DNA from: Acidobacteriota bacterium
Lineage (GTDB): Bacteria; Acidobacteriota; UBA6911; RPQK01; JAJDTT01
DNA: 64,000 nucleotides
Assembly: GCA_965222655.1 (NCBI GenBank)
Contig: CBDCUP010000019.1
Location: 280,825-344,824 of the forward strand
Reading direction: 5' to 3'
Made by a program: the position numbers and the translations under genes. Shown in pieces: positions 22,107 through 59,156 of the stretch (within the stretch, counting starts at the first letter, position 1; the number at the start of each line of letters is the position of its first letter). Below the pieces are notes generated by a model. It searched no databases. It saw only the letters and a program-made list of their open reading frames with translations, and had not been told where the DNA came from.

Positions 22107-24822
22107 TCACTCCGTCGGGACCAGCTGCTTGAGCTCTTCGAACCAGTTGAGGACGATAGTCAACTGCGAGCGTGCGGAGGCTTGCTCTTCGACGTCCTTC
22201 AGCATCAGGAAGCGCTGTCCGTCGCGGTCAATGTCGTAGTTTCGACCCGCGGCCACGCTGTAGCTTCCGGTGAACAACACTTCAGGACTTCCCGCCTTGA
22301 AAGTGGGCTCGGTTTCGACACGCACCACCATCATGCGATCACCGCTACGATAAAACAGCTCTCGCCCGTCCGGTGCCCACACTGTCGAGACTCCCCAATC
22401 ACCTGAGATCTGCCACTTTCCTTCCTCCACGTTGGGGAAGGGGCGAACATAGATTTCATCGCGCCCGGTCTCATAGGAGCGATAGGCAATGAACCGGCCA
22501 TCGGGGGAGATCTCTGCACGGCTTGTGGGTCCCACGTTCTGCAAACCAGTTGAGTCCTGGTAGCGACCTTGGATAAGCATCTTCGCGATGGGCTCAGCCC
22601 CCAGCGACGCCACGCCAATGCCAGCCATCCCGGCGACTCCCCCCCATTCTGAGAAAACCAGCGTCTTGCCATCAGGGGTGAAGGAATAGGGGTCTTGGTG
22701 GTTTGGACGCGTAGTGAGTTGCTCAACCTGACCTGTACCGTCCGCCCTCTTCCAGAATAGGTCACTCCCCTCTGCACCCTGGCGGCTGGACGCGAACAAC
22801 AGTCGTTGACCATCCGGGGTCCAGACCGGGCAATCGTCACGAGCCGGATCGAAGGTGAACCGACTGAGTGTCTCGCGGACCAGATCATAGATCCAGATCT
22901 CGCCGTCAAGATCTCTCTGACCGATAACCACGGCCATGCGCTTTCCGTCTGGGGAGATCCGGGGGAAACGGTAAAAGTGCGGCTCTGCAGCCAAGGGTTC
23001 CTCCCGCCCCTCCCGATCCACCCAGACCAGGCGCCGCCTGGAAGAAGCTGGACCTCCACCGGGCAGATAAACAAGAGTTCCGGTCCGTGAGAAATCGAAC
23101 TGGGCCTGAGACAATTCTGGCCGTGACCTAACGCCTTCGAGGATCGGAACCGGCGAGTCTGTCAGCTCCAGCCGATCGAGATCAAAAGGTGCAGCAAAGA
23201 GGGTGGCCTCTCGCATGAACACCAGGTGTCCCGTGGGGAGATAGCGGCCAAGGTAACCGCCTTGCTGAAGGACTCTTCTTTCGCCCGTCTCCAGAGACTG
23301 GGCTACAATGTTCCAGGATTGGACGTTCCCCCTGTCACCGGCACTGAAAAGCACCCATTCGCCGCCCGGCAAAACATGAGGGTATCGATGGGAATCCTCG
23401 CCGTTTTCTAGGTCTGGGACTGTAACCTCATCGGGCATTCCGCCGGTGGCGGGAACGTGTGACAGGCCCCTCAGGCCCGTCAAAGCAAAGACGATGGTGT
23501 CATCAGCAGCCCAGCTCGCCCCTTCCATGTTCGGGGATGGCACACCACACAAAGTCAGCGGCGCCCCACCAGAGAAGGCGACCTTTTTGAGCTTCTGATT
23601 GGCGGCGAATCCCACCCACTGGCCATCGGGAGAGAAGAAAGGACTGTGTGCCCCTTCCGTTCCAGCCAGAAGCCTGCCTTCTAATTCATCGAGGGCTCGC
23701 ACATAGAGGTTGATCCCTTGGGATTCTGTGACCGCGTAGGCCAGGCGCTTGCCGTCAGGAGAAATGGCCATGGCGGGGCCAGGATCTGTGTGCAGCGATT
23801 GGTCGGGGGACAAACCGAGACGAAATCGCATCGGCGTTGGTTCTACCGGATCGGTTGCCTGCCACTGCCAGAGCAGCGAAAGCAAAAATGCGACCGCCAA
23901 CAGTCCGGCAATTCCCCAGGGAAGAATCCGGGACACCGATCTTTCCACGTCGGATGCTGTTTCGAAGGAATCCTCGCTGCCAGACGCCAGCTCAGCCAGA
24001 TCAGTCCCCACCTCATGGACGGACTGGTAGCGTCGGTCCGGCTCTTTGGCCAGCATCTTTCTGACCGTGTGCTGAAGCAGTCCCGGTGCCTTGTCCAGAT
24101 ACTTGGTCACAGGGGCAGCGGCTTCATTGAGAACGGCATTGGCCGTCTCCACCGAGGAATCCTTCTGGAAGGGATGAAACCCAGTCAGCATCTCGTAGAG
24201 CACTACGCCGAAGGAGAAGATGTCAGAGCGAGCATCGATCTCTTGTCCTCGCAATTGCTCCGGGGACATATAAGGTACGGTCCCAAGCGTGTCACCCGTT
24301 TGGGTCAGGTTGGCGGTGAGGGTCTTTTCCTGACTGTCTCCTCCGTCCGCAGGAGTCAGCCGTTTGGCCAACCCAAAATCCAGGACCTTGATGTGCCCCT
24401 CGGGGGTGATCATGATGTTCGAGGGCTTGAGATCCCGATGGATGATGTTCTGCCGGTGGGCGGCTTCTAGGGCCTCGGCAATCTCGGTGGCCTTTTCGAG
24501 CGCGTCCGGTAGAGCAAGCGCGCCTTCTTCCAGCAGGTCCTTGAGCGTCTCGCCTTGGACATATTCCCGAGATGAAGGAGTTGCCTTCCGCTTCCCCCAC
24601 CTCATGAATGTGGCAAATATAGGCGTGGTCCAGCGCGGCCGCCGATTTGGCTTCCCGCAAAAACCGCTTCCTGGCGGTTTCGTCTCCCTGCATCTCCTCG
24701 GTCAGGAATTTCAAAGCGACTTTGCGATCTAGTCTCGTGTCTTCCGCCAGATACACCTCGCCCATCCCGCCTTCGCCGAGCTTAGAGGTGATCTTGTAAT
24801 GGGAGATGGTCTGGCCTAACAA
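22107..24822 (-). CDS. Hanks-type Ser/Thr protein kinase fused to TolB-like (PD40/WD40) beta-propeller, frameshifted at a G-run near 24567
   Basis: ORF 24292-24822 has kinase subdomains I-IV ([14 protein letters not shown]); ORF 22107-24605 continues with subdomain V onward ([22 protein letters not shown]), a TM segment and PD40 repeats; removing one g from the tcgggaat run near 24567 restores a single reading frame (...[13 protein letters not shown]...). Confidence 0.75.
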
Positions 24823-25108
24823 CGAGCCTCCAAGCTGTAGGGGAGCCTATCTAGCGAATACTAGATCTTTGAGTCTGGAAGGGCAATCTCAGAGGACGGT
24901 GGATATAAGAAATAGGAAGGATAGGCGGAACTCAATCCGCCTTTTCCGCTGACACTCGGAACGTTGTTTGCTGCGACGCTGGTCGTGTGCTTGAAACTGC
25001 CATCCTTGTCCTTGTTTCTCGCAAAGGCAACCCATTCTCTTCAGCCACAAGCTTTTCGTGGTCGCATGACCGCTTGGTCTGTGCGGAATGACCGCTTTTG
25101 GGCCGGTT

Positions 25109-25498
25109 AGCGGTCGTTCAATCGACGTTTCCGCGGGAAACTTGAATGACCGCTTTTAGGGTGCGCCGTGGTAAGGCGGCGCTTTCCCAGTGGGTGAGAG
25201 TCCCACCCGGCAACCGCTCCAGCCGGAAGCAACCGGAGCAACTATGGAGGTAACGAAATGGTTGAAGCCTCTGGTGAAGCGAGTCACGAATTGGTGACCG
25301 CGCGAGTGTGCAGGCCGTAACGCGAGTGAACGCTGAGCAAGCCTCGAAAAGGACGATGCGCAGGCCGACCCGGCTCCTAGACCGGGGAAGGCTGATAGGG
25401 CTGGGGAAGTGAGCGAAGCCGGCACCCAGTCGCTGCGCCGGGGTAGTGGCGACAGCATGTACACCAGGGAAGCGCACGCAACACGGGAAGCCCCTAGG
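25109..25498. repeat. about 390-bp inverted repeat, copy B
   Basis: See 21596-21984; a partial related motif (gttcgacgtttccgggaaaatttgaatgaccgctt) recurs at about 27640-27710. Confidence 0.85.
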
Positions 25499-28107: not shown

Positions 28108-28230
28108 CTTTAAGTAGGCACTTCGTGCCGACGGCCAAGGCCGTAAAAGGCTGTTTCGGGACACCCCGGCTGTGACGAAAGGGCGGTCTCAGAGAACAGC
28201 TCACTTGATTGAAATTCCGAGACTGTTAAG
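28108..28230. repeat. about 125-bp inverted repeat, copy 1 (partner at 41925-42052)
   Basis: taggcacttcgtgccgacggccaaggccgtaaaaggctgtttcgggacaccccggctgtgacgaaagggcggtctcagagaacagctcacttgattgaaattccgagac is reverse-complementary to 41925-42052. Confidence 0.85.
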
Positions 28231-28560
28231 TGCTCCGCGGGTTTCGGTGGAGGCTTTGGCTTTGTTGTTGTGTTTCTTGAGGGCGGGTGCCTCTGCTTGT
28301 CGCTGATCTCTTAGAGAGGTTCATGTTGAGCTCAACATAAAGAACGTTTTCTGGTGATTGTGATCGCTGCACCTCACTGCTGTCCGGTTTATTTTTCGAG
28401 GTCTGGCTGAAAGCCTTATGTGATGGGGCTTTGGGGAGATGGTGGAAAGAAGGGGGTTGTTTTTGGCCCGGAAGCTCCTGGGCCCGATTTGGGAAGGGGA
28501 CCTACCTTGGTTAAACTCTTTGGTTGTCATCAAAAAGCCAAAGAAGACCAAGGAGATCCC

Positions 28561-29748
28561 ATGGCCAAGTATACGTCAGTCCTGCATCAGTTGCTCCGTC
28601 ATATCCCCCGGGATGAGTTTCGCGCCATCGTGGAGCGCCGCCAAGGTGACAAGGGAGTCCGGAAGTTGTCGTGCTGGGGGCAGTTCGTGGCCCTTTTTTT
28701 CGGGCAGTTAACCGGACAGCATAGTTTGAGGGATCTGGTAACCGCTTTAGATGCAGGGCGAAAGAAGCTGCAGCAAGTGGGGCTGGGGGCGGTGAGCCGC
28801 TCCACGCTGGCGGATGCGAACCGCAAACGACCCCAGGAGATCTTCGGGGAGCTGTTTTCTTGCCTGTACAGCCGCTGTCGGAGTCAGGCTCCCGGTCAGC
28901 GTTTCGGCTTCCGGCATCGGGTGTACAGTCTGGATGCGACGGTGATCGATCTGTGCCTGAAAGTCTTTGACTGGGCGAAGTTTCGCAAGCGAAAAGGGGC
29001 GATCAAGTTACATCTGATCTTGGATCACGGGGGGCACATCCCCAGCTTTTGCGTGATGACCCCGGGCCGGGAGCACGAGATCGAGGTGGCGCGCGGCCAG
29101 CGCTACGAACCGGACAGCATCCTGACCTTTGACCGGGCCTACGTGGACTACCACTGGTTTGACCAACTCCACCGCCAGGGGGTGTACTTCGTGACCCGGC
29201 AGAAGCGCAACGCGCGTTACCGGGTGCTGGAGCGGCGGCCGGTGGGCTCCCCGCCGGGGATCACCTCGGATCAAGTCATTCGTCTGACCGGGAAGGCGGC
29301 CGGATGCCTGTCGACTCCCCTGCGCCGCATCGGCTACCGGGACCCGGAGACGAGGCAGTTCTATGTCTTCTTGACCAATCTGTTTCATCTCAGGGCGGCT
29401 GAGGTGGCCGCCATCTATAAGGCTCGCTGGCAAATCGAGCTGTTCTTCAAATGGGTCAAGCAGCACCTGAAGATCAAGAGCTTTCTGGGGACCACGGCCA
29501 ATGCGGTGATGACGCAGGTCTGGGTGGCGCTGTGTGTCTACCTGCTGGTGGCCTACGTGAAGTTTCTGCTGCGGCCCCCCGGGCGCCTGTACGAGATTTT
29601 CAAGCGGCTGCAGGTCACGGCCCTAGAGTACCTGGCTCTGGGGCAGGTCTTGACCTGGGAGACGAAAAACGGGCCCAAACGGGCACCAAAGTGGAGACAG
29701 CGCAACTTGTTCGGAAGACGGCTAAGGCCTTTGTTTGTAGGAGGATAG
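28561..29748 (+). mobile_element. IS4-family DDE transposase (apparently intact)
   Basis: DDE_Tnp_1-type C-terminus with YKARWQIELFFKWVKQHLKIK; ORF track start 28420, but Met at 28561 is the likelier start. Confidence 0.75.
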
Positions 29749-29886
29749 GAGTCGAGTGACTATAACCTTACAGTTAAGAGAGCTTTAAGTCTTTTAGAAT
29801 CAACGACATCAAACCGGACACTAGTGGGCCACGACCCAAACAATGGAGTGCCTTTCCCTCGATTTGATCGAGCATTCAAGAAAGGG

Positions 29887-29962
29887 TGGTCCCGGTGGGG
29901 TTCGAACCCACAGACTCCCGATTTTGAGACGGGCGCATGTGCCAATTCTGCTACGGGGCTTC
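29887..29962 (-). tRNA. tRNA-like gene, unresolved (good T-arm; acceptor strands not complementary)
   Basis: T-arm gtggg-ttcgaac-cccac and 3' cgggacc-a present; 5' strand reads gccccgt; anticodon loop ambiguous (ucUCAaaa). Confidence 0.35.
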
Positions 29963-30038
29963 TGGCCGGCTCGGGAGGAATTGAACCTCCAACGCGCAGG
30001 GCTTCAACCTGCCGCTCTACCCTTGGGGCTACGAGCCG
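29963..30038 (-). tRNA. tRNA-Phe(GAA)
   Basis: Hand-folded: acceptor cggctcg/cgagccg, anticodon arm gcagg-ttGAAgc-cctgc, T-arm ggagg-ttcaatt-cctcc, CCA encoded. Confidence 0.8.
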
Positions 30039-30055
30039 GAAAAATCTACGACAAT

Positions 30056-30132
30056 TGGTCTGGGCGGGAGGATTCGAACCTCCGAACACCCGGCTCCAAA
30101 CCGGGGAGTGAACCAGACCCACCTCCGCCCAG
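30056..30132 (-). tRNA. tRNA-Pro(TGG)
   Basis: Acceptor ctgggcg/cgcccag, anticodon arm cccgg-ttTGGag-ccggg, T-arm ggagg-ttcgaat-cctcc, CCA encoded; D-arm imperfect. Confidence 0.65.
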
Positions 30133-30212
30133 ACAAATCCAAGAGCCTCTGCCTGGACCCGGTTGGGAGCGGCAGACTCCCTCCTTGGAGAGGCGGAGAC
30201 TCAATCGTCCTC

Positions 30213-30291
30213 TGGTACCCCGGACGGGAATTGAACCCGTAGTTCACCAGGGTGAAAACCTGGCGACCATCCCAATGAAGTCGACCGGGGC
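30213..30291 (-). tRNA. tRNA-Glu(TTC)
   Basis: Acceptor gccccgg/ccggggt (G-U at 1-72), anticodon arm ccagg-ttTTCac-cctgg, T-arm acggg-ttcaatt-cccgt, CCA encoded. Confidence 0.6.
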
Positions 30292-30294
30292 TCT

Positions 30295-30371
30295 TGGCGG
30301 TACCGGCGGGGATCGAACCCGCATTCTCTACCTCGACAGGGTAGCTGCCTTCCCACTTCGCACACGATACC
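30295..30371 (-). tRNA. tRNA-Asp(GTC)
   Basis: Acceptor ggtatcg/cggtacc, anticodon arm ctacc-ctGTCga-ggtag, T-arm gcggg-ttcgatc-cccgc, CCA encoded; D-arm irregular. Confidence 0.6.
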
Positions 30372-30577
30372 GAATCCGCACTGCTGCAATCTCATGTTTG
30401 ACAGCTAGTGGACCGTAACACCTGAATTGCTAGCGCCTGAGCGTCCCTCGAGCCCGATCTCTGCGTTGCGCTTCCTCGCTATAGTCACGGCTATGCCTGC
30501 GTCAGCACGCCTTGACCTCGGGCCCGAATGGCTCACTCATCCACTACCGATTCAAGTGTTACAGTCCACTAGATAAC

Positions 30578-30650
30578 TGGTCCTGGACCGGGAATCGAAC
30601 CCGGGTCACTCGCTGATCAGGCGAGGGTCTTGCCACTAGACGACTCCAGG
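30578..30650 (-). tRNA. tRNA-Ile(GAT), acceptor with one mispair
   Basis: D-arm gtct-agtggca-agac, anticodon arm ctcgc-ctGATca-gcgag, T-arm ccggg-ttcgatt-cccgg. Confidence 0.55.
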
Positions 30651-30690
30651 TTTCTTCTCGTCCTCATCCTCATCCTCATCCCTCAGAATC

Positions 30691-30767
30691 TGGCGCGCCC
30701 CCAAGGATTCGAACCCTGATCCACGGGGTTGGAACCCGTGATGTTTGCCATTACACCAGGGACGCGC
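30691..30767 (-). tRNA. tRNA-Trp(CCA)
   Basis: Acceptor gcgcgtc/ggggcgc (1 mismatch), anticodon arm acggg-ttCCAac-cccgt, T-arm caggg-ttcgaat-ccttg, CCA encoded. Confidence 0.65.
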
Positions 30768-30775
30768 ACTTTCTC

Positions 30776-30850
30776 TGGTTGGGTCGGAGGGACTCGAACC
30801 CCCATCGACCTGGTTCGAAGCCAGGAGCCTTTCCGTTGAGCCACGGGCGC
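30776..30850 (-). tRNA. tRNA-Arg(TCG)-like, aberrant or chimeric (acceptor strands do not pair)
   Basis: 5' half gcgcccg...cctgg-cuUCGaa-ccagg is Arg-like; 3' part ggggg-ttcgagt-ccctc cgaccca-a-cca cannot pair with gcgcccg. Confidence 0.4.
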
Positions 30851-30852
30851 TC

Positions 30853-30927
30853 TGGAAGCGGCCCAGGGAGTCGAACCCTGATCTCCTGATTCAAAATCAG
30901 GCGTCATAGCCGTTTAACCAGGCCGCT
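30853..30927 (-). tRNA. tRNA-Gln(TTG)
   Basis: Acceptor agcggcc/ggccgct, anticodon arm cctga-ttTTGaa-tcagg, T-arm caggg-ttcgact-ccctg, CCA encoded. Confidence 0.75.
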
Positions 30928-30939
30928 TCAAAGAAAAAC

Positions 30940-31018
30940 TGGTACCCCTGGTAGGACTCGAACCTACACTGGATAGGGTCTGAACCTATCGCCTCTGCCA
31001 GATTGGGCTACAGGGGCA
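30940..31018 (-). tRNA. tRNA with anticodon CAG (Leu-like anticodon on a short-variable-arm type I scaffold)
   Basis: Acceptor gcccctg/caggggt, anticodon arm atagg-ttCAGac-cctat, T-arm gtagg-ttcgagt-cctac, CCA encoded; lacks the long variable arm expected for Leu. Confidence 0.45.
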
Positions 31019-31053
31019 CAAAAATCGTTGGCTGGGGCTCAGGGACTCAGCAA

Positions 31054-31127
31054 TGGAGTCCCAGGCCGGATTCGAACCGGCGTTCGACGGGTTGCAGCCG
31101 CCTGCCTGGCCACTCAGTCACCGGGAC
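31054..31127 (-). tRNA. tRNA-Cys(GCA)
   Basis: Acceptor gtcccgg/ctgggac, anticodon arm ggcgg-ctGCAac-ccgtc, T-arm gccgg-ttcgaat-ccggc, CCA encoded. Confidence 0.6.
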
Positions 31128-31130
31128 TCT

Positions 31131-31206
31131 TGGGGGGTCCGCGGGGAATCGAACCCCGCCGGTGCGGGCCACAACCGCACCCTCGCCCTGCGAACGGACT
31201 CCATAG
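31131..31206 (-). tRNA. tRNA-His(GTG)-like with truncated or absent D-arm (possible pseudogene)
   Basis: Anticodon arm (gg)tgcgg-ttGTGgc-ccgca(cc), T-arm cgggg-ttcgatt-ccccg, cggaccc-c-cca; only about 20 nt are available 5' of the anticodon stem. Confidence 0.35.
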
Positions 31207-31296
31207 TGGAGGAGGGAGAGGGACTCGAACCCTCATGCGCTGTTAACGCTGCCGGTTTTCGAAACCGGGCCCCGCCCCACTGGGGTCAACCCCTCC
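31207..31296 (-). tRNA. tRNA-Ser(CGA), type II with long variable arm
   Basis: Acceptor ggagggg/tccctcc, anticodon arm ccggt-ttCGAaa-accgg, long variable arm, T-arm gaggg-ttcgagt-ccctc, CCA encoded; 90 nt. Confidence 0.7.
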
Positions 31297-31435
31297 TCTG
31301 CTGAACCGATCCAGGACCTCACTGTTGGAGCCGGTGGCCCAACATCCCGGCCCTGGAGATTATTTATGTGGCCTTCCCTCCTTTCCGAGGAGCGCCGAAG
31401 ATCAATCCGGCGCCCCTCTCGAGTCGCGGTTGCGG

Positions 31436-32568
31436 CTAGTCCTCGACCGTCTTGTTACCGACCAGCGACCGTACCTGTTCGGTCAGCTCGCCCGAGCCGA
31501 AGATGAAGGTGGTCTTGGCGCCCGACAGGATTTCCTGCAGGCCCTCCAGTTCCTTCATCCGCGCCAGCACCGGGTTGTCGGCCATCAGCCGGGCGGTGTT
31601 GACCTGCGAGCGGACCGCGGCGGTCTCTTCACGTCGCTGAATCAGGTTGGCCTCGGCCCGCTTCTCGGCCTCGATCACCTGGTTCAGGATGGTCTTCATT
31701 TCACCCGGCAGGATGATGTCTCGCACACCCACCGAACGGACCGCGATACCAAAGTCCTCGGCTCGCGAGGCGAGCGCGTCCCGGACCTCGGTGCCGACCA
31801 CCTGCTTTTCAGCCAGCAGTTCGTCGATCCGACGAGTTCCCACTGCCGCCCGAAGCGCCAGCTGGGCCTCTCGGTAGACGGCCTGCTCGTAGTTGGTGAC
31901 CACGGTCAGGGCCAGCGTCGCGTCAGCTACCTGGTAGGTCACCAGCAGGTTGACCCGCAGAGTGACCTTGTCGGCGGTCATGATCTCCTGGCCGGCGACT
32001 TCTGCAACCTGCTCCCGCAGGTCGGCGGTCCAGAACTCGATCTTGCCGGCCTGCTTCCAGAAGGCGTGCAGACCCGGCTCCAGGACCTCGACCAGCCGCC
32101 CCTCCAGGAAGAGCAGGACCCGCTCATAGGTTCGAACCCGGACCGACTCCAGGCACTCGGCAGTTGCCGAGCGACCCAGGATGGACTCCAGTTTCGGGTG
32201 CTGGAAGCGGAAATCACGGACGTTGAACCGCTCCACTTCCAGCTCGTACGGCTTCCGCCAGAAGGCGTGACGGCCGCGTCCCAGGACCGAAGCCAGTCGC
32301 CCTTCCTTCCAGAGCAGGGCTCGTTCCTGCTCGGCCAGATCGACCAGGACCAGCTCGTCCCGCAACACCTCGTCCTCGACCAGGAGGTCGAGCAGCCGGT
32401 GCTCGAATCGAGTGGTGAGCCGGTTATAGACCTCGATCTTGACCCGGTCGGGATCCCACAGGCGTTCCACCGTTCGGTAGAAGCCTGGCTGCAGCACCCG
32501 CTCGAAATCTCCGAAGCGGAACCGCAGTCCGATCTGGTGCTTTTGAATTCGCGTCTTTAGAAACATGA
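31436..32568 (-). CDS. SPFH/band-7 (stomatin/HflK-like) domain protein
   Basis: SPFH core (QEIMTADKVTLRVNLLVTYQVAD ... AVRSVGVRDIILPGEMK) and coiled-coil tail; ORF-track start 32785 is probably an over-extension; Met at 32566 preferred. Confidence 0.7.
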
Positions 32569-33193
32569 CTGCGCTCCTTTCTGTTGCCGGAGAGAGTCTT
32601 GGTGCCTGGGGGAGAACTTGAACTTCCGAGTCGCGGCGGATGAAGCTGCAACCCCCGTTCAAATCTTCCCATTTCGCCAAACTTCCAACTCTCCAGGAAC
32701 ATGGATTGTCAGGATCTGCGACACCGCATCGAAGGAACCGCTGATCCCGTGACCATTCGAGACCCCTTGCCCCGAATGAACTCATTTCATTTTCTCCAAT
32801 AGCTCAGTTTCTTCTCCTGTTTCGACGGGCCAGTGGCCCGGCATGGCCGTCCTGCCCCCTCTGGCCGGCGGAGGCTGGGTTGAGACGACCCACCCGTAGC
32901 GTTGGCAATCGTCTTTCTGAGGCGAGCCGGTCTCCGTCGAAGGCACGAGAGATCGGTTCGTCCCATCAGAACGCTGCTTCCACGACTTCGGAGCCGTCGG
33001 TATCCCCCCGCCTGCAAGGCCGCCTTCAGGGTGCTTTCCGAGGAGCGATTGATCACAACCGAAAAACGGTCGCGAATCCTCTCACCATCGGAGAGCGTGC
33101 AAGTCGTGCCGCGCCGGATGCCACTGGGTCCGTCCATTGTCAGTAACTTCCGTCAAAGGGAAGTGTTAGGACCCTAAAACGAGGCCTAACCGT

Positions 33194-33267
33194 TGGACAT
33201 CAGGCAGGAATCGAACCTGCGACCGACGGGTTATGAGCCCGTTGCTCTGCCATCTGAGCTACTGATC
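33194..33267 (-). tRNA. tRNA-Met(CAT), initiator-like anticodon stem; acceptor stem irregular
   Basis: D-arm gctc-agatggc-agagc, anticodon arm acggg-ctCATaa-cccgt (three G-C pairs), T-arm gcagg-ttcgatt-cctgc; the 3' acceptor strand has 2 extra nt relative to the 5' strand. Confidence 0.5.
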
Positions 33268-33447
33268 CTCAGCCGACGCGGGGACTTGAAACCGTCACGG
33301 AACACACCGCTTCAACTAGCTGAAAAGCGGGGAAGCGGGGCGCCGCCGGAACCGACCGCGTCAACTGCCACGACCTGTGTAAATGCCTAACTGTTGCCGG
33401 GACACTACCAGTCGCGTGTACTGGGAGCGTGCTACTGGGTATTCGGG

Positions 33448-33480
33448 TGGGAATAAAAAAAGCCCCGAAGACTCAGTCTC
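33448..33480 (-). terminator. rho-independent terminator (GC hairpin followed by T7 on the minus strand)
   Basis: Minus-strand gccccggagactgagtcttcggggc followed by ttttttt. Confidence 0.5.
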
Positions 33481-33876
33481 CGGGGCATGAGAAGCCTAAA
33501 TGGGTGGCTTTTCTATCCCGGAGGACGGCACACTGCGCGCATATCCCATTGGCATTCGGCCAATGACTCAGCGAACCGTAGACTGGTCCCTATAGGTCCA
33601 GTTGGGCATTCATGTGTGTTGCTGAGTTGTTTCCGCATTTGTTGCCTTGCCACCTTTCTCCAGATTGAGATCCAAGAAGTCCGGGCTGCGCCCATCTATG
33701 AGGATGGACTCTCGCGGCTTGGATCGCCTGCCAACCGAAGCCTTAACCGAGCTCGGGTCTCAGCAGGGAAGAGACATTCTACAGAGAAAAGTCTCAGTGT
33801 CGAGCTTTTTTTTCGAATTTTCTCCGAGTGGAGTCATTTCGTAGGGGGAGAATTGTGACGCCATGAGGACTTCGGG

Positions 33877-34920
33877 TCACGACTCGACCCGCAGAACAAT
33901 CTTTCCGAACTGGCTCTGGTTCTCGAGATGTTTCATTGCATCCCTGGCTTGACTCAAAGGAAAGACTCTATCGATCACCGGTCTGAGCTTCCCCCTTGAG
34001 AGCAGTTCAACGATCTCTCGGTATTCCTGGCGGCTACTCATGCTGGAGCCCAGAATCTCGATCTGCTTCCAGAAGATGAGTCTCAGTTCGGTCTGGGGGT
34101 TGGGACCTGTGGTAGCGCCGCAGGTCACGATCCTGCCTCCCTTACGAACCATCTTGAGACTCTGGAGCCAGGTGGTGGCACCAGGGCCTTCCACCACGAT
34201 ATCCACACCCCGTTTCCCAGTGAGCTTGTACACCTCCTTGGCCACGTCGGCGGTAGTGTAATTGAAGCAGTGATCGGCACCGAGTTTACTGGCTTGTTCA
34301 AGCTTGGTCTCACTGGAAGAGCTGACGAAGGTGCGAGCACCCGACAGGACTGCGATTTGTAGGGCTGCAGATGCTACGCCGCCTCCGATCCCGTGAATGA
34401 AGACATCCTCGCCAGCCCGTAGCCGGGCACGGGTTTTCAACATTCTCCAGGCGGTTTGGGTCACCAGGGAAAAGGCGGCAGCCTCTTCGAAAGAGACGCC
34501 GCTGGGAATCTTCTCGAAGTTGGCCTCTGGAGCCTGGAAGTACTGTGCGAAGGTCCCTCCGGTATGCTCACCCATCAGGCCGAATCCTATGCAGAGGCTG
34601 TGCTCGCCCTGAACACAGAATTCGCACTGGCCACACGAGAGGCCCGGATTCAGCATCACCTGGTCTCCGGGCTCCAGACGGCTGACACCCTGACCCACTT
34701 CCTCGACGATTCCGGCCCCATCCGATCCCATCACGTGCGGCATCTCCAGATTCACTCCCGGAATGCCTTCCAGAACAAAGAGGTCGAGGCGGTTGAGGGC
34801 CACGGCTCTGGCTCGAACCAGGACGTGGCCTGGGTCTACCTGAGGACGATCGATTTCCTGGAAGTGGAGCTCATCCAGGGTTCCATGCCGGTGGATGACG
34901 GCGGCGTGCATCTTTCCCAT
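33877..34920 (-). CDS. Zn-dependent alcohol dehydrogenase / MDR superfamily oxidoreductase
   Basis: GHEGAG-like motif (MGSDGAGIVEEVG), structural Zn Cys cluster CGQCEFCVQGEHSLC, GxGxxG Rossmann motif. Confidence 0.8.
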   Translation of the reverse strand: MGKMHAAVIHRHGTLDELHFQEIDRPQVDPGHVLVRARAVALNRLDLFVLEGIPGVNLEMPHVMGSDGAGIVEEVGQGVSRLEPGDQVMLNPGLSCGQCEFCVQGEHSLCIGFGLMGEHTGGTFAQYFQAPEANFEKIPSGVSFEEAAAFSLVTQTAWRMLKTRARLRAGEDVFIHGIGGGVASAALQIAVLSGARTFVSSSSETKLEQASKLGADHCFNYTTADVAKEVYKLTGKRGVDIVVEGPGATTWLQSLKMVRKGGRIVTCGATTGPNPQTELRLIFWKQIEILGSSMSSRQEYREIVELLSRGKLRPVIDRVFPLSQARDAMKHLENQSQFGKIVLRVES

Positions 34921-34927
34921 TTTCGAC

Positions 34928-35914
34928 TCAGAGTCCCTCTATTTCCTTGATCCTTCGAGTCAAGGCAGGCACGACTTCGAGGAGATCGGCTACGATCCCG
35001 TAGTTGGCGATATTGAAGATGGGAGCATTGGGGTCGCTGTTGATGGCCACGATACAGCCTGAGTTTCTCATCCCAACGACGTGCTGGATCGCTCCCGAGA
35101 TGCCGCAGGCGAGATAGAGCCGGGGAGAAACGGTTTGCCCCGAACTGCCTATTTGTCGGGACCGTTCCAGCCACTCGCTGTCAACCGCCGCACGGCTGGC
35201 CCCGATCTCAGCGCCCAGGACCTCTGCTAGTTCCTGGATGATCTTCAGGTTCGCGGCCTCTTTGATGCCTCTGCCGACGGCCACGATGATCTCGGCCTTT
35301 CCCAGGTCCACCCTCTCTTTAGCGGACGCAACCACCTCGAGCGACTTTCGTTTCACCTCTATCTGCGAAAGGTCGACCGTCCGCTCTACGACCGAGCAAC
35401 TACCCTGGAGGATGTCGTCGGAGCTGACCGCCCCCGACTGCAAAGTCACCAGCCAGGGCGGAGCCGAGCGGATCCGTACATCGGCATTGATCTTGTTTCG
35501 GAACATCTGTCGTGAAAACAGGAGTTCGTCACCGCGTTGCTTGTAGCCAATACAGTCCGTGACCAGACCTGATTTCAAGCTGGCGGCAAGCCTGGGAGCC
35601 AGATCGATGTTCTGGTAGGTGTGAGCCATCAGAAACAGATCGGGCCGATCTTCCACCAGAATCTGACGCAAGGTCTCAGAGTAGATGTCGGGATTGTACT
35701 CACTGAGCCGTTCGTGTTGAACCGCAAGGACCGCTTCGGCCTTCCTGCCGATGACCTGCTGCGCCAGGGCCGCGGCATCTTGTCCCAGGATCAGCGGGTG
35801 AAGAGAGCCTCCCAGGTCCCGGGCCAGCTGCTGGCCAAAGACCAGCGTTTCCCAGGAGGCGGAGGGGATCTTTCCGTCACTGTGATCGAGCAGGGCGTAG
35901 ATGGTGTTCGTCAT
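34928..35914 (-). CDS. etfA: electron transfer flavoprotein alpha subunit
   Basis: FAD-binding C-terminal signature (RAAVDSEW ... PRLYLACGISGAIQHVVGM). Confidence 0.85.
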   Translation of the reverse strand: MTNTIYALLDHSDGKIPSASWETLVFGQQLARDLGGSLHPLILGQDAAALAQQVIGRKAEAVLAVQHERLSEYNPDIYSETLRQILVEDRPDLFLMAHTYQNIDLAPRLAASLKSGLVTDCIGYKQRGDELLFSRQMFRNKINADVRIRSAPPWLVTLQSGAVSSDDILQGSCSVVERTVDLSQIEVKRKSLEVVASAKERVDLGKAEIIVAVGRGIKEAANLKIIQELAEVLGAEIGASRAAVDSEWLERSRQIGSSGQTVSPRLYLACGISGAIQHVVGMRNSGCIVAINSDPNAPIFNIANYGIVADLLEVVPALTRRIKEIEGL

Positions 35915-35933
35915 CTCTTCAGAAGCGTCACGC

Positions 35934-36716
35934 TTAGATTACCTTGGCCTCTTTCCTCAGCTTCTCCACCAGTGTCTCCGCCAGAGTCTCGACGTTGCCC
36001 TCGAGCATCTCCGCCTTGGTGTGGGTCTGGGGGACATAGAGGTCAACTATCTCCAATTGCGGCATCGAGGCGAAGTCCAGCTCCAACTCACCTAGCTGGA
36101 TGTTTCGAATCTCCTTCTTTTTGGCTTGCATGATTCCTCGCAGTGGGGGGAAACGAACCTGAGAAATCCCGGCCTGAATAGCGAGTACGGCAGGCAGGGA
36201 CATCTCCACCCACTGGAAAAAGCCACTTTCCATCTCTCGAAGCGCCCTTACCTTCCCCAGGCTGGGATCGACATCAATCTGCATGACGATGGTGGCATGA
36301 GGTATCCCCAACAATTCGGCCAGGATCACGCCGGTCTGACCGTAACCGTAGTCGTCCGACTGAGTTCCCAGCAGGATCAATTCGAACTCCTCGGGACCCA
36401 GCACGCCAGCCAAAGCCGCCGCCACGGTGTAGGGACTGGTAAGCTCGCTGGACTCATCGACGACCCTGATCCCGCGGTCCGCCCCCATGGCCAAAGCCTT
36501 ACGCATCGACTTCTCGGAGCCCGTCGGTCCCGCGGTCACGACGACCACTTCACCTCCGTGCTGCTCTTTCAGCTTCAGGGCTTCTTCCAGGGAGTACTCG
36601 TCGCACTCGCTGATGTCGTAGGTGAGATCGGAGTCTTGGATCCAGGGCCTGTCTTCGCGCAGTTGGTAGCGGCTTTCGCGTCCGGGAACTGCCTTGAGAC
36701 AGGTCGCGAGCTTCAT
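35934..36716 (-). CDS. etfB: electron transfer flavoprotein beta subunit
   Basis: EtfB-typical N-terminus MKLATCLKAVP and overall pattern; 20-bp spacing to etfA. Confidence 0.85.
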   Translation of the reverse strand: MKLATCLKAVPGRESRYQLREDRPWIQDSDLTYDISECDEYSLEEALKLKEQHGGEVVVVTAGPTGSEKSMRKALAMGADRGIRVVDESSELTSPYTVAAALAGVLGPEEFELILLGTQSDDYGYGQTGVILAELLGIPHATIVMQIDVDPSLGKVRALREMESGFFQWVEMSLPAVLAIQAGISQVRFPPLRGIMQAKKKEIRNIQLGELELDFASMPQLEIVDLYVPQTHTKAEMLEGNVETLAETLVEKLRKEAKVI

Positions 36717-37156
36717 TTCTTGAACAAGCGCTCGAAAGCCTCACGCGGGTCTGTGGGACTCGATTCAGTGCTGGTAGTCCGCTGGGAGCTGACGACTTTC
36801 TCTACCGCTGTTCGGGTTTCAAAGAAATCACACATATTCCCCATGTCCTTTTTGGGAACGCGCTCCGGAATCGGTTCCGTGCACTCGAAGCGAGCGGTGG
36901 GGTCGAAGTGGACACAGTTTTTGCAGGTATGGAGGTCCGCCTCGCACTTGAGGCACTTGCTCGTATAGGTCACTTCGTCAAAGGATGTAGGGAGGGAGGC
37001 GCCACACAATGCGCACCGAACCACCTTGTGAAATCCGGTCATTCTGGGAGAGCGGGGACCTTCTCGAGAGGATGGAGAGCGTGGTTTCCGCTCTTTCTGG
37101 CGCCGCTCAGATCGCTCTGACCCGTCGCCGTAGCCCGGCTGCCGATACTTCTTCAT
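36713..37156 (-). CDS. zinc-ribbon (multi-CxxC) small protein
   Basis: CALC...C..C...C..C cluster; basic low-complexity N-terminus; overlaps the etfB stop (possible operon). Confidence 0.45.
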   Translation of the reverse strand: MKKYRQPGYGDGSERSERRQKERKPRSPSSREGPRSPRMTGFHKVVRCALCGASLPTSFDEVTYTSKCLKCEADLHTCKNCVHFDPTARFECTEPIPERVPKKDMGNMCDFFETRTAVEKVVSSQRTTSTESSPTDPREAFERLFKK

Positions 37157-37208
37157 GGGTGAATACCTCGGTTGAGAGTTTTCAATCCTCTTGACAGAGC
37201 CGTCCTAA

Positions 37209-37383
37209 CCCGCATTTCTCATCGCTGGTCTACTACGTCGCCGCAATCATCCGCCCTGGCTGCGTTACGCTCTCTCGGCCTCCTCGACGTACTGCACGAG
37301 TACGACTGCGGGGGCCTCGGTCGCAAGCCTTGCCAGGACGGCCCTTGCGGCGCCTCGCTACGACAAGCGATGAGAAATCCGGG
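37209..37383. repeat. 175-bp MITE-like element with imperfect terminal inverted repeats, copy 1 (copy 2 at 59157-59331)
   Basis: About 97% identical to 59157-59331; ends cccgcatttctcatcgctggtctac / gctacgacaagcgatgagaaatccggg are mutually reverse-complementary; internal hairpins cgtactgcacgagtacg and gcaagccttgc. Confidence 0.8.
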
Positions 37384-37531
37384 TTAACGCAGTGCAACCT
37401 GGGCTGCATCTAAACGATGCACTCCCACACCATTGATCTCCCCTTGTACCCGCTTTGTTTAGTAAGTCTGTCTACACTCGCCGCCCCAGCTGCGGGGTGT
37501 AGGACTTAGATGTCTAAGTAGTTGTTCTAAA

Positions 37532-38044: not shown

Positions 38045-38065
38045 ACTCTTGATTCTAGGACGTTG

Positions 38066-38323
38066 ATGCCCAGGAAGCAAATCAATTTCTACACACGACC
38101 CGGTTGCCACCTGTGCGAGGATGCTCTCAAAGTATTGCAAGATCTCCGAAGGGAATTCAAGTTCAGTCTCACAATCGTGGACATCTCTGATTCAGAGGAC
38201 CTGGTCGCCCGCTATGGCAACGACATCCCGGTAGCAGAGCTCGAGGGCCGGAGAATTTTCAAGCACCGAACGGATCGACGAGTTATGCGACGAGTTTTGA
38301 GCCGGCTTTGTGCAGCGGAGTAG
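38066..38323 (+). CDS. glutaredoxin-like (thioredoxin-fold, CxxC) small protein
   Basis: [13 protein letters not shown]...IVDI..D..L..RYGN.IPV pattern; ORF track extends to a TTG at 37985. Confidence 0.6.
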
Positions 38324-41516: not shown

Positions 41517-41529
41517 CGCTTCGAGTGCC

Positions 41530-41955
41530 TTGTGGCCTGTACTTTTACGATGGGCTAGCCGGCTTGCTCCCCTAGGTATCAAGGTGATGAAACTCAGTGC
41601 TCCCTTCCATATGTTTCGTCGAGGGTATCGATCTCATCTGAAGCTGGGGGTCCTGGTGGCTTGGGGATTCATGGCCCTGGCCCAAGCAGACGAATGGGTT
41701 GGAGTCTGGCGGATTACAGCCGTCGACGGCAGTCCCCTGGGAGTCACCTACCACCTTGCAATTTCAGGCGCAGAGGAGCGTAGTATTCGAGTCTTTGATG
41801 AGACTGGAAGACCCCTGATCGTACTGGACACGCATTTTGACGAGGCAGAACTGAATCTGGTGAGCACTCGAGTCGCCAGTAGGCCTCTACCCCTGCGCCT
41901 GCAGGCGACACGCACAGAGGGTCGACTTAACAGTCTCGGAATTTCAATCAAGTGA
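41530..41955 (+). CDS. hypothetical protein
   Basis: 141-aa ORF with hydrophobic N-terminus; weak support. Confidence 0.3.
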   Translation: MWPVLLRWASRLAPLGIKVMKLSAPFHMFRRGYRSHLKLGVLVAWGFMALAQADEWVGVWRITAVDGSPLGVTYHLAISGAEERSIRVFDETGRPLIVLDTHFDEAELNLVSTRVASRPLPLRLQATRTEGRLNSLGISIK

Positions 41956-42052
41956 GCTGTTCTCTGAGACCGCCCTTTCGTCACAGCCGGGGTGTCCCGA
42001 AACAGCCTTTTACGGCCTTGGCCGTCGGCACGAAGTGCCTACCTACTTAAAG
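41925..42052. repeat. about 125-bp inverted repeat, copy 2
   Basis: Reverse complement of 28108-28230. Confidence 0.85.
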
Positions 42053-59139: not shown

Positions 59140-59156
59140 CATTGGAAGTAGACTAT

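What the first reader, a model, noticed from the sequence alone, without database searches (positions are those of the whole stretch)
29887..31296. Dense minus-strand tRNA array of about 13 genes next to an IS4 transposase, with several structurally aberrant members
Thirteen tRNA or tRNA-like genes lie head-to-tail on the minus strand, with spacers as short as 2-3 nt. Nine fold into clean cloverleaves by hand: Phe-GAA, Pro-TGG, Glu-TTC, Asp-GTC, Ile-GAT, Trp-CCA, Gln-TTG, Cys-GCA and Ser-CGA, most with encoded CCA. Four are abnormal. The first has unpaired acceptor strands. An Arg-TCG-like gene carries an Arg 5' half fused to a 3' part whose acceptor strand (cgaccca) cannot pair with gcgcccg. 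A CAG-anticodon tRNA sits on a type-I scaffold. A His-GTG-like gene lacks a D-arm. An intact IS4-family transposase sits immediately upstream (28561-29748), and the whole block is enclosed by the 125-bp inverted repeat pair. This mix of functional and degenerate tRNAs in a tight array beside a transposase resembles mobile tRNA arrays known from phages and integrative elements, rather than a housekeeping tRNA operon.
Basis: partly seen in the sequence, partly recalled or inferred. Interest (0 to 1): 0.8.

Follow-up and report, generated by a model that had tools for sequence, protein, structure and literature searches.

The report
Accessory tRNA array beside slipin gene
This is a real cluster of 13 spare, partly odd transfer-RNA genes in an uncultured Acidobacteriota genome; it belongs to a recurring package (a tRNA-shaped RNA, a new structured leader RNA, a slipin protein and, in relatives, an RNA-repair ligase) found in two bacterial phyla and one phage, and the neighbouring transposase is a later intruder.

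Summary
ARAGORN finds 12 tRNAs and Rfam finds one more tRNA-like gene, head to tail on the minus strand at 29885-31296.

All four "aberrant" members now have an explanation:
- **Arg-like gene:** a deletion chimera of Arg-TCG and the neighbouring Lys-TTT.
- **CAG tRNA:** a member of a short-variable-arm tRNA-Leu class that is common in phages.
- **His-like gene:** it keeps G-1, C73 and GTG but has a compact D hairpin.
- **Leu-CAA:** it carries a strain-specific acceptor mismatch.

The IS4 element is a secondary insertion into a tRNA-Met gene. The "125-bp inverted repeat" is a TTAA-duplicating MITE, and one of its two copies in the window is absent in sister strains. Neither delimits a mobile block. 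The locus is syntenic in a related species.

The array follows a conserved cassette: a tRNA-like element with a drifting anticodon, a pseudoknotted leader RNA that is not in Rfam, and a slipin gene. This cassette recurs in Acidobacteriota, in Phycisphaerae (inside 25-38-tRNA arrays with RtcB and HNH genes) and in one bona fide phage.

In Anabaena, a tRNA L-array, rtcB, an HNH gene and a slipin gene are co-regulated under translational stress.

Best reading: an eroding, supernumerary L-array-type tRNA operon tied to an RNA-damage or translational-stress response.

The parts
33195..33268 (-). Upstream tRNA-like element (CAT anticodon here). It belongs to a class found 300-800 nt upstream of the slipin gene in 56 of 74 loci, with a drifting anticodon loop.
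   Evidence: (59 bits).
32852..33037 (-). Core of a conserved non-coding leader RNA. It has helix P1, an internal loop (N-GGAUACC opposite UCAA-R), helix P2, a terminal hairpin and a pseudoknot. GGATACC lies at 32999-33005.
   Evidence: No Rfam hit.
32600..32668 (-). Degenerate second tRNA-like element just upstream of the slipin start. The copy is intact in L013, L014 and L015, where it has Leu anticodons TAA or CAG and A73.
31436..32566 (-). Slipin (SPFH/Band 7) family gene, 376 aa, with an invariant AAAGGAG-N7-ATG start.
31297..31435 (-). Strongly structured spacer between the slipin stop and the first tRNA: a 13-bp GC hairpin plus a second hairpin, with no U tract.
   Evidence: z = -3.5. 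No terminator called.
31207..31296 (-). tRNA-Ser(CGA), type II, 7/5 acceptor, odd D arm, U73, CCA encoded.
31131..31202 (-). tRNA-His(GTG)-like gene with G-1 (31202), C73 and a compact D hairpin.
31054..31127 (-). tRNA-Cys(GCA). The L012 orthologue has GTA.
30940..31017 (-). Short-variable-arm tRNA-Leu(CAG) with A73, A14, A15-U48 and G18G19.
30853..30927 (-). tRNA-Gln(TTG).
   Evidence: 60.5 bits.
30776..30850 (-). Pseudogene: a chimera of the 5' part of tRNA-Arg(TCG) and the 3' part of tRNA-Lys(TTT), made by a one-unit deletion between the two T arms.
30691..30765 (-). tRNA-Trp(CCA).
30579..30651 (-). tRNA-Ile(GAT), with an A1.A72 mismatch and no CCA.
30405..30572 (.). A 168-nt MITE with terminal inverted repeats CTAGTGGACYGTAACAC, inserted between Ile and Asp. 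It is absent in L005.
30295..30371 (-). tRNA-Asp(GTC).
30213..30291 (-). tRNA-Glu(TTC).
30056..30132 (-). tRNA-Pro(TGG), with G8. It scores below the Rfam cut-off but is nearly invariant across four genomes.
29963..30038 (-). tRNA-Phe(GAA), with a C1-G72 pair.
29885..29960 (-). Short-arm tRNA-Leu(CAA) with A73. The A1.C72 mismatch is conserved; a window-specific G70A change adds a C3.A70 mismatch.
29828..29838 (-). 5' fragment (TGGGTCGTGGC) of the tRNA-Met(CAT) gene that the IS4 split.
28375..29826 (+). IS4-family element with inverted repeats CACTnnTGTCCGGTTT and a transposase at 28561-29748. It is a secondary insertion. The left flank in the window is rearranged relative to L001.
28111..28231 (.). 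Copy 1 of a 121-nt MITE with a TTAA target duplication.
41925..42045 (.). Copy 2 of the same MITE, absent at this site in L001-L004 and L006.

Best explanation
The block is a supernumerary, L-array-type tRNA operon in the chromosome of an uncultured Acidobacteriota bacterium.

**Transcription unit (inferred).** It lies directly downstream of a conserved cassette and is probably transcribed with it. The cassette consists of a tRNA-shaped element whose anticodon is free to drift, a pseudoknotted leader RNA and a slipin gene.

**Function (inferred by analogy).** The array supplies spare tRNAs, several with irregular bodies, which the host synthetases probably charge. This inference rests on conserved identity elements: A73 plus the D/T tertiary set for the short-arm tRNA-Leu, and G-1/C73/GTG for His. 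By analogy with the Anabaena trn L-array and its TrcR regulon, these tRNAs would be used when the normal tRNA pool or translation is damaged. They could act as replacements or as sponges for tRNA-cleaving toxins. The tRNA shapes would also provide RNase P/Z processing sites that release the leader-slipin mRNA.

**State in this strain (shown).** The array is being eroded:
- A one-unit deletion fused Arg and Lys.
- An IS4 element inserted into tRNA-Met, and the flank was then rearranged.
- A MITE inserted between Ile and Asp.
- A point mutation weakened the Leu-CAA acceptor stem.

**Shown versus inferred.** Shown: anatomy, comparative conservation, secondary origin of the IS and MITEs, recurrence of the cassette, and linkage to RtcB, HNH genes and a phage. 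Inferred: co-transcription, aminoacylation, stress induction and what the slipin does.
For: 1. The array is real and dense.
2. Membership varies between close relatives. L005 has intact Arg-TCG, a MITE-split Lys-TTT, Gln-CTG and Met-CAT. L038 has Lys-TTT but lacks Asp and Glu. L012 lacks Phe and Leu-CAA. The window's array has no Lys, Ala, Gly, Val, Thr, Asn or Tyr tRNA, so the genome must encode tRNAs elsewhere. The copies present in sister strains are therefore dispensable.
3. Structure is under purifying selection. Stem positions vary at 46/666 against 94/631 for unpaired positions. There are 7 compensatory double changes and 17 one-sided changes that keep pairing. The Ser CGA to TGA and Leu CAG to TAA shifts stay within the same amino acid.
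4. Synteny with L038 at 86-93% protein identity indicates vertical inheritance.
5. The cassette recurs. 56 of 74 slipin loci have a same-strand tRNA-like element 300-800 nt upstream, and 21 of 74 have a tRNA within 300 nt downstream. The leader's covariation is strong: 90.7% of cells paired against 71% in shuffles and about 40% in slid controls, and 19 of 23 pairs change on both sides.
6. Phycisphaerae arrays of 25-38 tRNAs embed the slipin with RtcB and HNH genes. RtcB lies within 10 kb of the slipin in 11 loci.
7. Phage L092 carries 36 tRNAs, the tRNA-like element, a GGATACC...CTCAAG leader and the slipin, next to terminase and portal genes.
8. Literature: in Anabaena the trn L-array, rtcB, the HNH gene all8564 and the slipin gene alr0740 are all repressed by TrcR and induced by translational stress (PMC10272220; PMC8421152).
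9. In Citrobacter, rtcR is divergently adjacent to a homologous slipin gene (38% identity over 95% of the length). That gene has a sigma-54-type promoter and a leader with a T-arm mimic.
Against: - There are no expression, processing or charging data.
- The rest of the 4.7-Mb genome could not be scanned, so redundancy is inferred, not shown.
- No RtcB or HNH gene lies near the array in this window.
- No promoter was found between the upstream terminator and the tRNA-like element.
- Conserved synteny argues against recent mobility, which is the usual hallmark of L-arrays.
- I could not verify that Anabaena alr0740 belongs to the same slipin subfamily.
- Thirteen stem pairs are broken in at least one orthologue, and three members are destroyed in this strain. 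At least part of the array may therefore be drifting towards loss.
Confidence: 0.6

Rival explanations
1. The array is a decaying relic: a once-acquired (possibly phage-derived) tRNA array that no longer functions and is being dismantled by deletions, IS elements and MITEs.
For: - The Arg/Lys chimera, the IS4 in tRNA-Met followed by a rearrangement, the MITE between Ile and Asp, and the G70A change in Leu-CAA.
- In L005 two MITE copies sit in the anticodon loop of tRNA-Lys.
- The L012 Cys and Trp orthologues have changed anticodons and broken pairs.
- Three members fall below the Rfam cut-offs.
Against: - Stems vary half as often as loops, and there are 7 compensatory changes.
- Even the oddest members (the His-like and Pro genes) are nearly invariant across four genomes at about 10% protein divergence.
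- The array keeps the same position after the slipin gene in three species and in a paralogous locus.
Confidence: 0.17
2. The tRNAs do not serve translation. They act as RNA decoys or sponges for tRNA-targeting nucleases, as processing punctuation for the slipin mRNA, or as ligands for the leader RNA.
For: - The upstream tRNA-like class has 31 different 'anticodons' in 56 loci, and only 29 have a canonical loop, while the D and T arms are nearly invariant.
- RtcB is linked to the slipin.
- A sponge role was proposed for Anabaena operonic tRNAs (PMC8421152).
- Acidobacterial irregular tRNAs with G-1 are charged but not used in translation in E. coli (PMC5389517).
Against: - The array members proper mostly have canonical 7-nt anticodon loops, encoded CCA and identity elements.
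- Anticodon shifts in Ser and Leu stay synonymous, as expected for decoders.
Confidence: 0.15
3. One reading: a recently acquired mobile block carried by the IS4 transposase and bounded by the 121-nt inverted repeats.
For: An intact IS4 transposase lies next to the array, and an inverted repeat pair encloses 13.7 kb.
Against: - The block between the repeats holds syntenic housekeeping genes (ETF, ADH) shared with L038.
- The 41925 repeat copy is absent in L001-L004 and L006, and the repeat is a MITE with a TTAA duplication.
- L005 and L038 have the array without the IS4.
- The IS4 interrupts tRNA-Met.
Confidence: 0.03
4. It is an ordinary housekeeping tRNA operon.
For: The position is chromosomal and syntenic. 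Most members are recognised by ARAGORN and Rfam.
Against: - Members are gained and lost between strains.
- The short-arm Leu, compact-D His, G8 Pro and the chimera are irregular.
- Rfam scores are modest at 36-60 bits.
- Arrays of this length were not seen in Acidobacteria in a phylum-wide survey (PMC8421152).
Confidence: 0.05

Closest known systems
L-arrays (long supernumerary tRNA gene arrays), e.g. the Anabaena sp. PCC 7120 trn operon (Santamaria-Gomez et al. 2021, PMC8421152; TrcR regulon, PMC10272220)
   Same: - Many tightly packed, same-strand, non-periodic tRNA genes that include pseudogenes and irregular members.
- Related arrays carry an HNH endonuclease and RtcB.
- In Anabaena a slipin gene, rtcB and the HNH gene are co-regulated with the array.
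   Different: - It is shorter: 13 genes here and 15 in the L005 array, against up to 43.
- It is chromosomal and syntenic across species rather than sporadic.
- It is physically fused to a tRNA-like/leader/slipin cassette, which the papers I searched (nothing found) do not describe for L-arrays.
- It is in Acidobacteriota, where the 2021 survey saw only accretive arrays.
tRNA array units (Tran et al. 2016, PMC4758250; Mycobacterium arrays, PMC5966550, PMC12803027)
   Same: Very high tRNA gene density (about 9 per kb) and a suspected accessory or anti-defence role.
   Different: It falls below the defining threshold of 20 genes, and it is not on a plasmid, ICE or phage here.
Phage tRNA arrays
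   Same: The short-arm tRNA-Leu D-arm signature is found in at least 120 IMG/VR contigs. One phage (L092) has the whole cassette with 36 tRNAs.
   Different: There are no phage genes in the window neighbourhood. No INPHARED phage matches the array or the slipin.
Irregular tRNA polycistrons and allo-tRNAs of Acidobacteria (Mukai et al. 2017, PMC5389517)
   Same: Acidobacterial, polycistronic, irregular tRNAs, some with G-1. Anticodons are decoupled from the tRNA body.
   Different: All members here have a 7/5 acceptor/T configuration, not 8/4 or 9/3. The array is much longer, and no toxin-antitoxin genes are adjacent.
Rtc RNA-repair loci with tRNA-like Y RNAs (rsr-yrlA-rtcBA under RtcR)
   Same: A tRNA-mimicking non-coding RNA sits next to RNA-repair genes. 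RtcB is often adjacent to this slipin, and rtcR is adjacent to it in Citrobacter.
   Different: The Rfam YrlA model scores only 14.8-26.8 bits against a cut-off of 69. There is no Rsr gene. The element here is a full cloverleaf.

Membership tests
L-array (Santamaria-Gomez et al. 2021) | Long run of same-orientation tRNA genes close enough to be co-transcribed | tested here: met
   12 + 1 genes in 1.41 kb, with spacers of 2-207 nt. L005 has 15.
L-array (Santamaria-Gomez et al. 2021) | Non-periodic composition (not built by tandem accretion) | tested here: met
   No direct-repeat family of 40 nt or more. 12 different anticodons. Only local paralogues (Lys/Met, Gln TTG/CTG).
L-array (Santamaria-Gomez et al. 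2021) | Supernumerary: duplicates the housekeeping tRNA set | tested here: inconclusive
   Presence/absence polymorphism of members between strains implies dispensability. The rest of the genome could not be scanned.
L-array (Santamaria-Gomez et al. 2021) | Sporadic distribution and spread by horizontal transfer | tested here: inconclusive
   Syntenic in L038, which points to vertical descent. But the cassette is shared with Phycisphaerae at about 60% slipin identity and with a phage.
L-array (Santamaria-Gomez et al. 2021) | Neighbouring HNH homing endonuclease and RNA-processing genes | tested here: not met
   None in the window neighbourhood. Present in related arrays: HNH in 7 loci and RtcB in 11.
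L-array (Santamaria-Gomez et al. 2021) | Silent under normal conditions and induced by translational stress | not testable with these tools
   No expression data.
tRNA array unit (Tran et al. 2016) | At least 20 tRNA genes | tested here: not met
   13 in the window, 15 in L005.
tRNA array unit (Tran et al. 2016) | Density of at least 2 tRNA genes per kb | tested here: met
   About 9 per kb.
Phage- or ICE-borne tRNA array | Located within a phage, prophage, plasmid or integrative element (integrase or structural genes, attachment sites) | tested here: not met
   The flanks are ETF, ADH, slipin and, in sister strains, glycosyltransferase or ABC transporter genes. No phage or plasmid match. The IS4 and MITEs are secondary.
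Housekeeping tRNA operon | Canonical, stably conserved, non-redundant tRNAs | tested here: not met
   Irregular members, a chimera and variable membership.
allo-tRNA (Mukai et al. 2017) | 12-bp acceptor branch in 8/4 or 9/3 configuration with a long variable arm | tested here: not met
   The Ser-CGA gene is 7/5. Its 39.3-bit tRNA-Sec hit is below the cut-off of 47.
Any Rfam family for the leader RNA (T-box, YrlA and others) | Match to the family's covariance model | tested here: not met
   No hit at E of 10 or less apart from the tRNAs. YrlA scores 14.8 and 26.8 bits against 69.
Bacterial tRNA-Leu identity set (E. coli; PMC9976931) | A73 plus A14, the A15-U48 Levitt pair and G18G19. The long arm is not required by E. 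coli LeuRS. | tested here: met
   Read directly from the Leu-CAG sequence against the review. Actual charging was not tested.

The most novel reading that the evidence does not exclude
The tRNA-shaped element, the pseudoknotted GGAUACC/CUCAA leader RNA, the slipin gene, the spare tRNAs and (in relatives) RtcB and an HNH endonuclease form one cross-phylum, phage-exchangeable RNA-damage response module. In this reading the leader is a new sensor, either riboswitch-like or tRNA-binding. It couples tRNA status to expression of a membrane scaffold and a reserve tRNA pool.
Probability: 0.25. Interest if true: 0.85.

Novelty: new variant of a known kind. Interest (0 to 1): 0.62.

Why it matters
Accessory tRNA arrays are widespread but poorly understood. 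The only functional model is Anabaena, where the array, rtcB, an HNH gene and a slipin gene respond together to translational stress.

Here the same components are physically joined in two other phyla and in one phage. They come with two RNA elements that I could not find described:
- a tRNA-like element whose anticodon drifts freely;
- a covariation-supported pseudoknotted leader RNA.

This gives testable handles on what these arrays do and how they are controlled. It extends long irregular tRNA arrays to Acidobacteriota. It also points to a large, apparently unremarked class of short-variable-arm tRNA-Leu genes in phages, which contradicts the textbook statement that tRNA-Leu always has a long arm outside animal mitochondria.

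Tried and rejected
- **A coding ORF between the upstream tRNA and the slipin** (the 116-aa ORF at 32787-33137). Rejected. It was not called in any assembly, the spurious ORFs cluster in all frames, and conservation is block-wise with covarying helices.
- **T-box riboswitch.** The GGGNGGAUACCG box resembles the T-box sequence, but there is no Rfam T-box hit. The box lies in a two-sided internal loop, not a 7-nt bulge.
- **Transcription attenuation by the leader.** No convincing terminator downstream in three loci.
- **Recent transfer of whole arrays between phyla.** Rejected. Only the T arms, the short-arm Leu and the upstream tRNA-like element match between Acidobacteriota and Phycisphaerae arrays.
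- **Anti-phage defence system.** No PADLOC hit for the slipin or its neighbours.
- **JGI metagenome scan with the His-like core.** 0 hits.
- **nhmmer with the two leader halves on phage L092.** It missed the motif, which I found only by eye.
- **'Ser-TGA' in L005.** This ARAGORN call is the Phe-GAA orthologue with a 3-nt deletion in the variable region, not an anticodon switch.
- **First exact-protein look-up of the slipin.** It failed because the mechanical ORF start was too far upstream.
- **E. coli genome search with the Citrobacter rtcR-slipin DNA.** No match at megablast sensitivity.
Full report
**1. The observation**

ARAGORN finds 13 tRNA genes in the 64-kb window. Twelve of them lie head to tail on the minus strand at 29885-31296. 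In order of transcription they are Ser-CGA, His-GTG, Cys-GCA, Leu-CAG, Gln-TTG, Trp-CCA, Ile-GAT, Asp-GTC, Glu-TTC, Pro-TGG, Phe-GAA and Leu-CAA.

Rfam at gathering threshold recognises nine of these (42-60 bits). At a permissive threshold:
- Pro reaches only 25.9 bits (cut-off 29).
- Ser matches only the tRNA-Sec model (39.3 bits, cut-off 47).
- The His-like gene gets no tRNA hit.

Spacers are 2-207 nt.

**2. Source and relatives**

Exact-protein look-ups place the window in long-read metagenome assemblies. One is a 4.73-Mb contig (ERZ25766727 ctg362384) that is 99.9% identical to window 28375-46034.

The slipin gene next to the array has its closest public relatives in Acidobacteriota MAGs: L012 (91%), L038 (88%) and L013 (82%). 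A divergent strain (L005/L010) and these species provide the comparisons that explain the anomalies.

**3. The four aberrant members**

*(a) The Arg-like gene.* L005, L038 and L012 have an intact Arg-TCG. In L038 and L012 it is followed by an intact Lys-TTT. Both genes share the T arm GGGGGTTCGAGTCC. The window sequence is the Arg 5' part joined, inside that T arm, to the Lys 3' end (CTCCGACCCAACCA). This is a one-unit deletion chimera at 30776-30850. It explains why the acceptor strands cannot pair.

*(b) The CAG tRNA on a type-I scaffold.*
- It has A73, A14, A15-U48 and G18G19. According to the identity review, these are what E. coli LeuRS needs; the long arm is not required (PMC9976931).
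- Its L013 orthologue has anticodon TAA, also Leu, with a compensatory change in the anticodon stem.
- The same D-arm signature (GTAGCCCAA-N-GGCAGAGGC) marks short tRNAs with Leu anticodons in the Phycisphaerae arrays.
- The signature occurs in at least 120 IMG/VR contigs. In the 80 fetched viral loci, 80 of 81 matching tRNAs are 73-79 nt long with Leu anticodons.
- It is therefore a member of a phage-typical short-arm tRNA-Leu class, not a broken gene.

*(c) The His-like gene.* It has a genomic G-1, C73, GTG and a compact D hairpin (5-bp stem, 3-nt loop in the minimum-free-energy fold). It is nearly invariant in four genomes.

*(d) The 'first' gene.* This is a 76-nt Leu-CAA with A73. The A1.C72 mismatch is shared by all orthologues. 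The C3.A70 mismatch is a window-specific G70A change.

**4. The transposase and the repeats are latecomers**

The IS4 element:
- It spans 28375-29826, with inverted repeats CACTnnTGTCCGGTTT.
- In L038 the Leu-CAA gene is followed after 47 nt by a tRNA-Met(CAT). In the window lineage the IS4 sits after the first 11 nt of that gene (TGGGTCGTGGC, 29828-29838).
- In L001 the target duplication regenerates the tRNA on the far side of the IS4. In the window the far flank is unrelated sequence, so an IS-mediated rearrangement has removed it.
- L005 and L038 have the array but no IS4.

The '125-bp inverted repeat':
- It is a 121-nt MITE flanked by TTAA.
- The 41925 copy is missing in L001-L004 and L006.
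- In L005 two tandem copies sit exactly in the anticodon loop (CTTTTA|A) of tRNA-Lys.

A second MITE (30405-30572; inverted repeats CTAGTGGACYGTAACAC) accounts for most of the 207-nt Ile-Asp gap and is absent in L005.

The block between the 121-nt repeats contains ETF, ADH and other genes. These are syntenic with L038 at 86-93% protein identity. No phage or plasmid record holds the array. The locus is thus chromosomal and vertically inherited in this lineage. It is not a repeat-bounded mobile block.

**5. Functional or dead?**

Across the orthologous arrays (L001, L005, L038, L012, L013):
- Paired positions vary at 46/666, against 94/631 for unpaired positions.
- There are 7 compensatory double changes, 17 one-sided changes that keep pairing, and 13 pairs broken in at least one sequence.
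- Anticodon shifts in Ser (CGA to TGA) and Leu (CAG to TAA) stay synonymous.
- The L012 Cys-to-GTA and Trp-to-TCA variants come with other damage.

Membership differs between relatives. The window array lacks tRNAs for many amino acids, including Lys. The genome must therefore encode tRNAs elsewhere, and array copies such as Lys-TTT are dispensable. The array behaves like a supernumerary set under structural selection that is being eroded in this strain.

**6. The surroundings: a conserved cassette**

The array starts 139 nt after a 376-aa slipin (SPFH) gene. Among the 80 best of 498 confirmed relatives in GTDB genomes:
- 56 of 74 loci with enough flank have a same-strand tRNA or tRNA-like element 300-800 nt upstream of the slipin.
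- 21 of 74 have a tRNA within 300 nt downstream.

The upstream elements share nearly invariant D and T arms. But they show 31 different 'anticodons' in 56 loci, including AAT, ATA, ATC, TTA and 5-6-nt loops. Only 29 have a canonical loop. The window's Met-CAT at 33195-33268 belongs to this class.

A non-coding leader lies between this element and the slipin start:
- Its core (window 32852-33037) is shared by Acidobacteriota and Phycisphaerae.
- It consists of helix P1, an internal loop (N-GGAUACC opposite UCAA-R), helix P2, a terminal hairpin, and a pseudoknot between an upstream CGGC box and the hairpin loop.
- On a 25-sequence alignment, 90.7% of cells pair, against 71% in shuffles and about 40% in slid controls. 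Nineteen of 23 pairs change on both sides, including all four pseudoknot pairs.
- The structure was derived from these same sequences, which inflates the numbers somewhat. The covariation is still extensive.
- nhmmer finds both halves in order in 37 of 77 loci.
- No Rfam family matches.

**7. What the relatives add**

- Six Phycisphaerae loci embed the slipin in arrays of 25-38 tRNAs.
- These arrays also embed RtcB RNA ligase (219-232 bits) and HNH endonuclease genes, and they are flanked by ordinary chromosomal genes.
- RtcB homologues lie within 10 kb of the slipin in 11 loci, several of them without arrays. HNH genes occur in 7 loci.
- One IMG/VR contig (L092, 94 kb) has 36 tRNAs, an HNH gene, a terminal tRNA-like element, a leader with GTGGATACC...CTCAAG, and a slipin (44% identity). 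These are followed by terminase large subunit (phrog_675, 300 bits) and portal genes.
- Only three IMG/VR contigs and no INPHARED phage have this slipin. The cassette is therefore mainly cellular but does occur in a phage.

**8. Link to known biology**

- L-arrays are long, supernumerary, horizontally spread tRNA operons. The Anabaena trn operon is silent until translation is impaired. It is flanked by an HNH endonuclease gene and co-regulated with rtcB (PMC8421152).
- The TrcR paper lists the genes derepressed more than 8-fold in the trcR mutant: rtcB (77x), the HNH gene all8564 (17x) and alr0739-alr0740, where alr0740 is a 'slipin family protein' (42x). TrcR binds their promoters and represses the trn operon (PMC10272220).
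- The set that is co-regulated in a cyanobacterium is thus physically clustered here.
- Independently, a homologous slipin (37-38% identity over 95% of the length) in Citrobacter lies divergently next to rtcR. In about 30% of complete E. coli genomes it forms a slipin-nucleotidyltransferase pair.
- Both enterobacterial versions have a conserved sigma-54-type promoter and a leader containing a perfect T-arm mimic.
- I could not verify that alr0740 is of the same subfamily.

**9. Mechanism proposed**

Shown:
- the array, its conservation pattern and its erosion;
- the cassette and its recurrence;
- the linkage to RtcB, HNH genes and a phage.

Inferred:
- One transcript starts upstream of the tRNA-like element. 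A strong terminator lies just before that element, and none lies between it and the end of the array.
- RNase P and RNase Z cut at the tRNA shapes, releasing the leader-slipin mRNA and the tRNAs.
- The tRNAs act as a reserve or decoy pool when tRNAs are damaged or translation is impaired.
- The role of the leader (sensor?) and of the slipin (protease scaffold?) is unknown.

**10. Verdict**

This is a real, interesting but not categorically new feature: a new variant of the L-array kind. It is the first such array that I can document in Acidobacteriota, where the 2021 survey saw only accretive arrays. It comes with a previously undescribed tRNA-like/leader/slipin cassette. The IS4 and the repeats are incidental.

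Noticed in passing
window 32852-33037 (-); also L012-L079 upstream of the slipin genes: A conserved pseudoknotted leader RNA (N-GGAUACC / UCAA-R internal loop) lies upstream of slipin genes in Acidobacteriota, Phycisphaerae and one phage. It is absent from Rfam 15. Covariation is strong: 19 of 23 pairs change on both sides.
   Followed up: partly
window 33195-33268 (-); position ~9400-9680 in L016-L091: A tRNA-like element 300-800 nt upstream of the slipin in 56 of 74 loci. D and T arms are nearly invariant, but there are 31 different 'anticodons', including unnatural ones and 5-6-nt loops.
   Followed up: partly
L094-L173 (IMG/VR contigs); window 30940-31017: Short-variable-arm (73-79 nt) tRNAs with Leu anticodons and the D-arm signature GTAGCCCAA-N-GGCAGAGGC are abundant in viral contigs (at least 120 contigs). 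A review states that tRNA-Leu has a long arm everywhere except animal mitochondria.
   Followed up: partly
L005 15146-15452: Two tandem copies of the 121-nt TTAA-duplicating MITE are inserted exactly in the anticodon loop of tRNA-Lys(TTT).
   Followed up: yes
L217 6553-7000 (Citrobacter freundii); L218 4001-4530 (E. coli WAT): The enterobacterial slipin-nucleotidyltransferase operon has a sigma-54-type promoter (CTGGCACGCTTCTCGCA) and a conserved leader of about 280 nt with a T-arm mimic (TGGGTTCGATTCCCA). rtcR is adjacent in Citrobacter. The pair is present in 1625 of 5426 complete E. coli genomes, next to a zeta-toxin gene.
   Followed up: partly
window 21596-21993 and 25101-25498: A 398-nt inverted repeat pair (98%). 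Each arm holds a full group II intron D1-D4 match (102.8 bits). The pair flanks a Ser/Thr kinase-PD40 gene (22107-24605).
   Followed up: no
window 33462-33803 (-): A conserved promoter-like site (TCGACA-16-TAGAAT, 10/12) is followed about 290 nt later by a strong terminator (11-bp stem plus T7). It lies between the ADH gene and the tRNA-like element and is also present in L038 and L005. It may be a small RNA or small-protein gene.
   Followed up: no
window 30652-30690 (-): The Trp-Ile spacer contains a (GATGAG)n-like microsatellite (GGATGAGGATGAGGATGAGGACGAG).
   Followed up: no
window 30133-30212 (-): An 80-nt spacer between Glu and Pro keeps the same length in L005 and L012. It is not a tRNA, and its fold is not exceptional (z = -0.76).
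   Followed up: partly
L012 and L013 (contigs 495 and 546 of the same MAG, Langseth_Bin_00184): Two different slipin-plus-array loci (91% and 82% slipin identity, different tRNA content) are binned in one MAG. This is either a paralogous second locus or a mixed bin.
   Followed up: no
window 16766-17083 and 59153-59331: Two further short dispersed repeats. A 318-nt element (99% identity) recurs beyond the IS4 in L001-L004. A 179-nt element (97.8% identity) is repeated between the glutaredoxin-like and orf147 genes.
   Followed up: no
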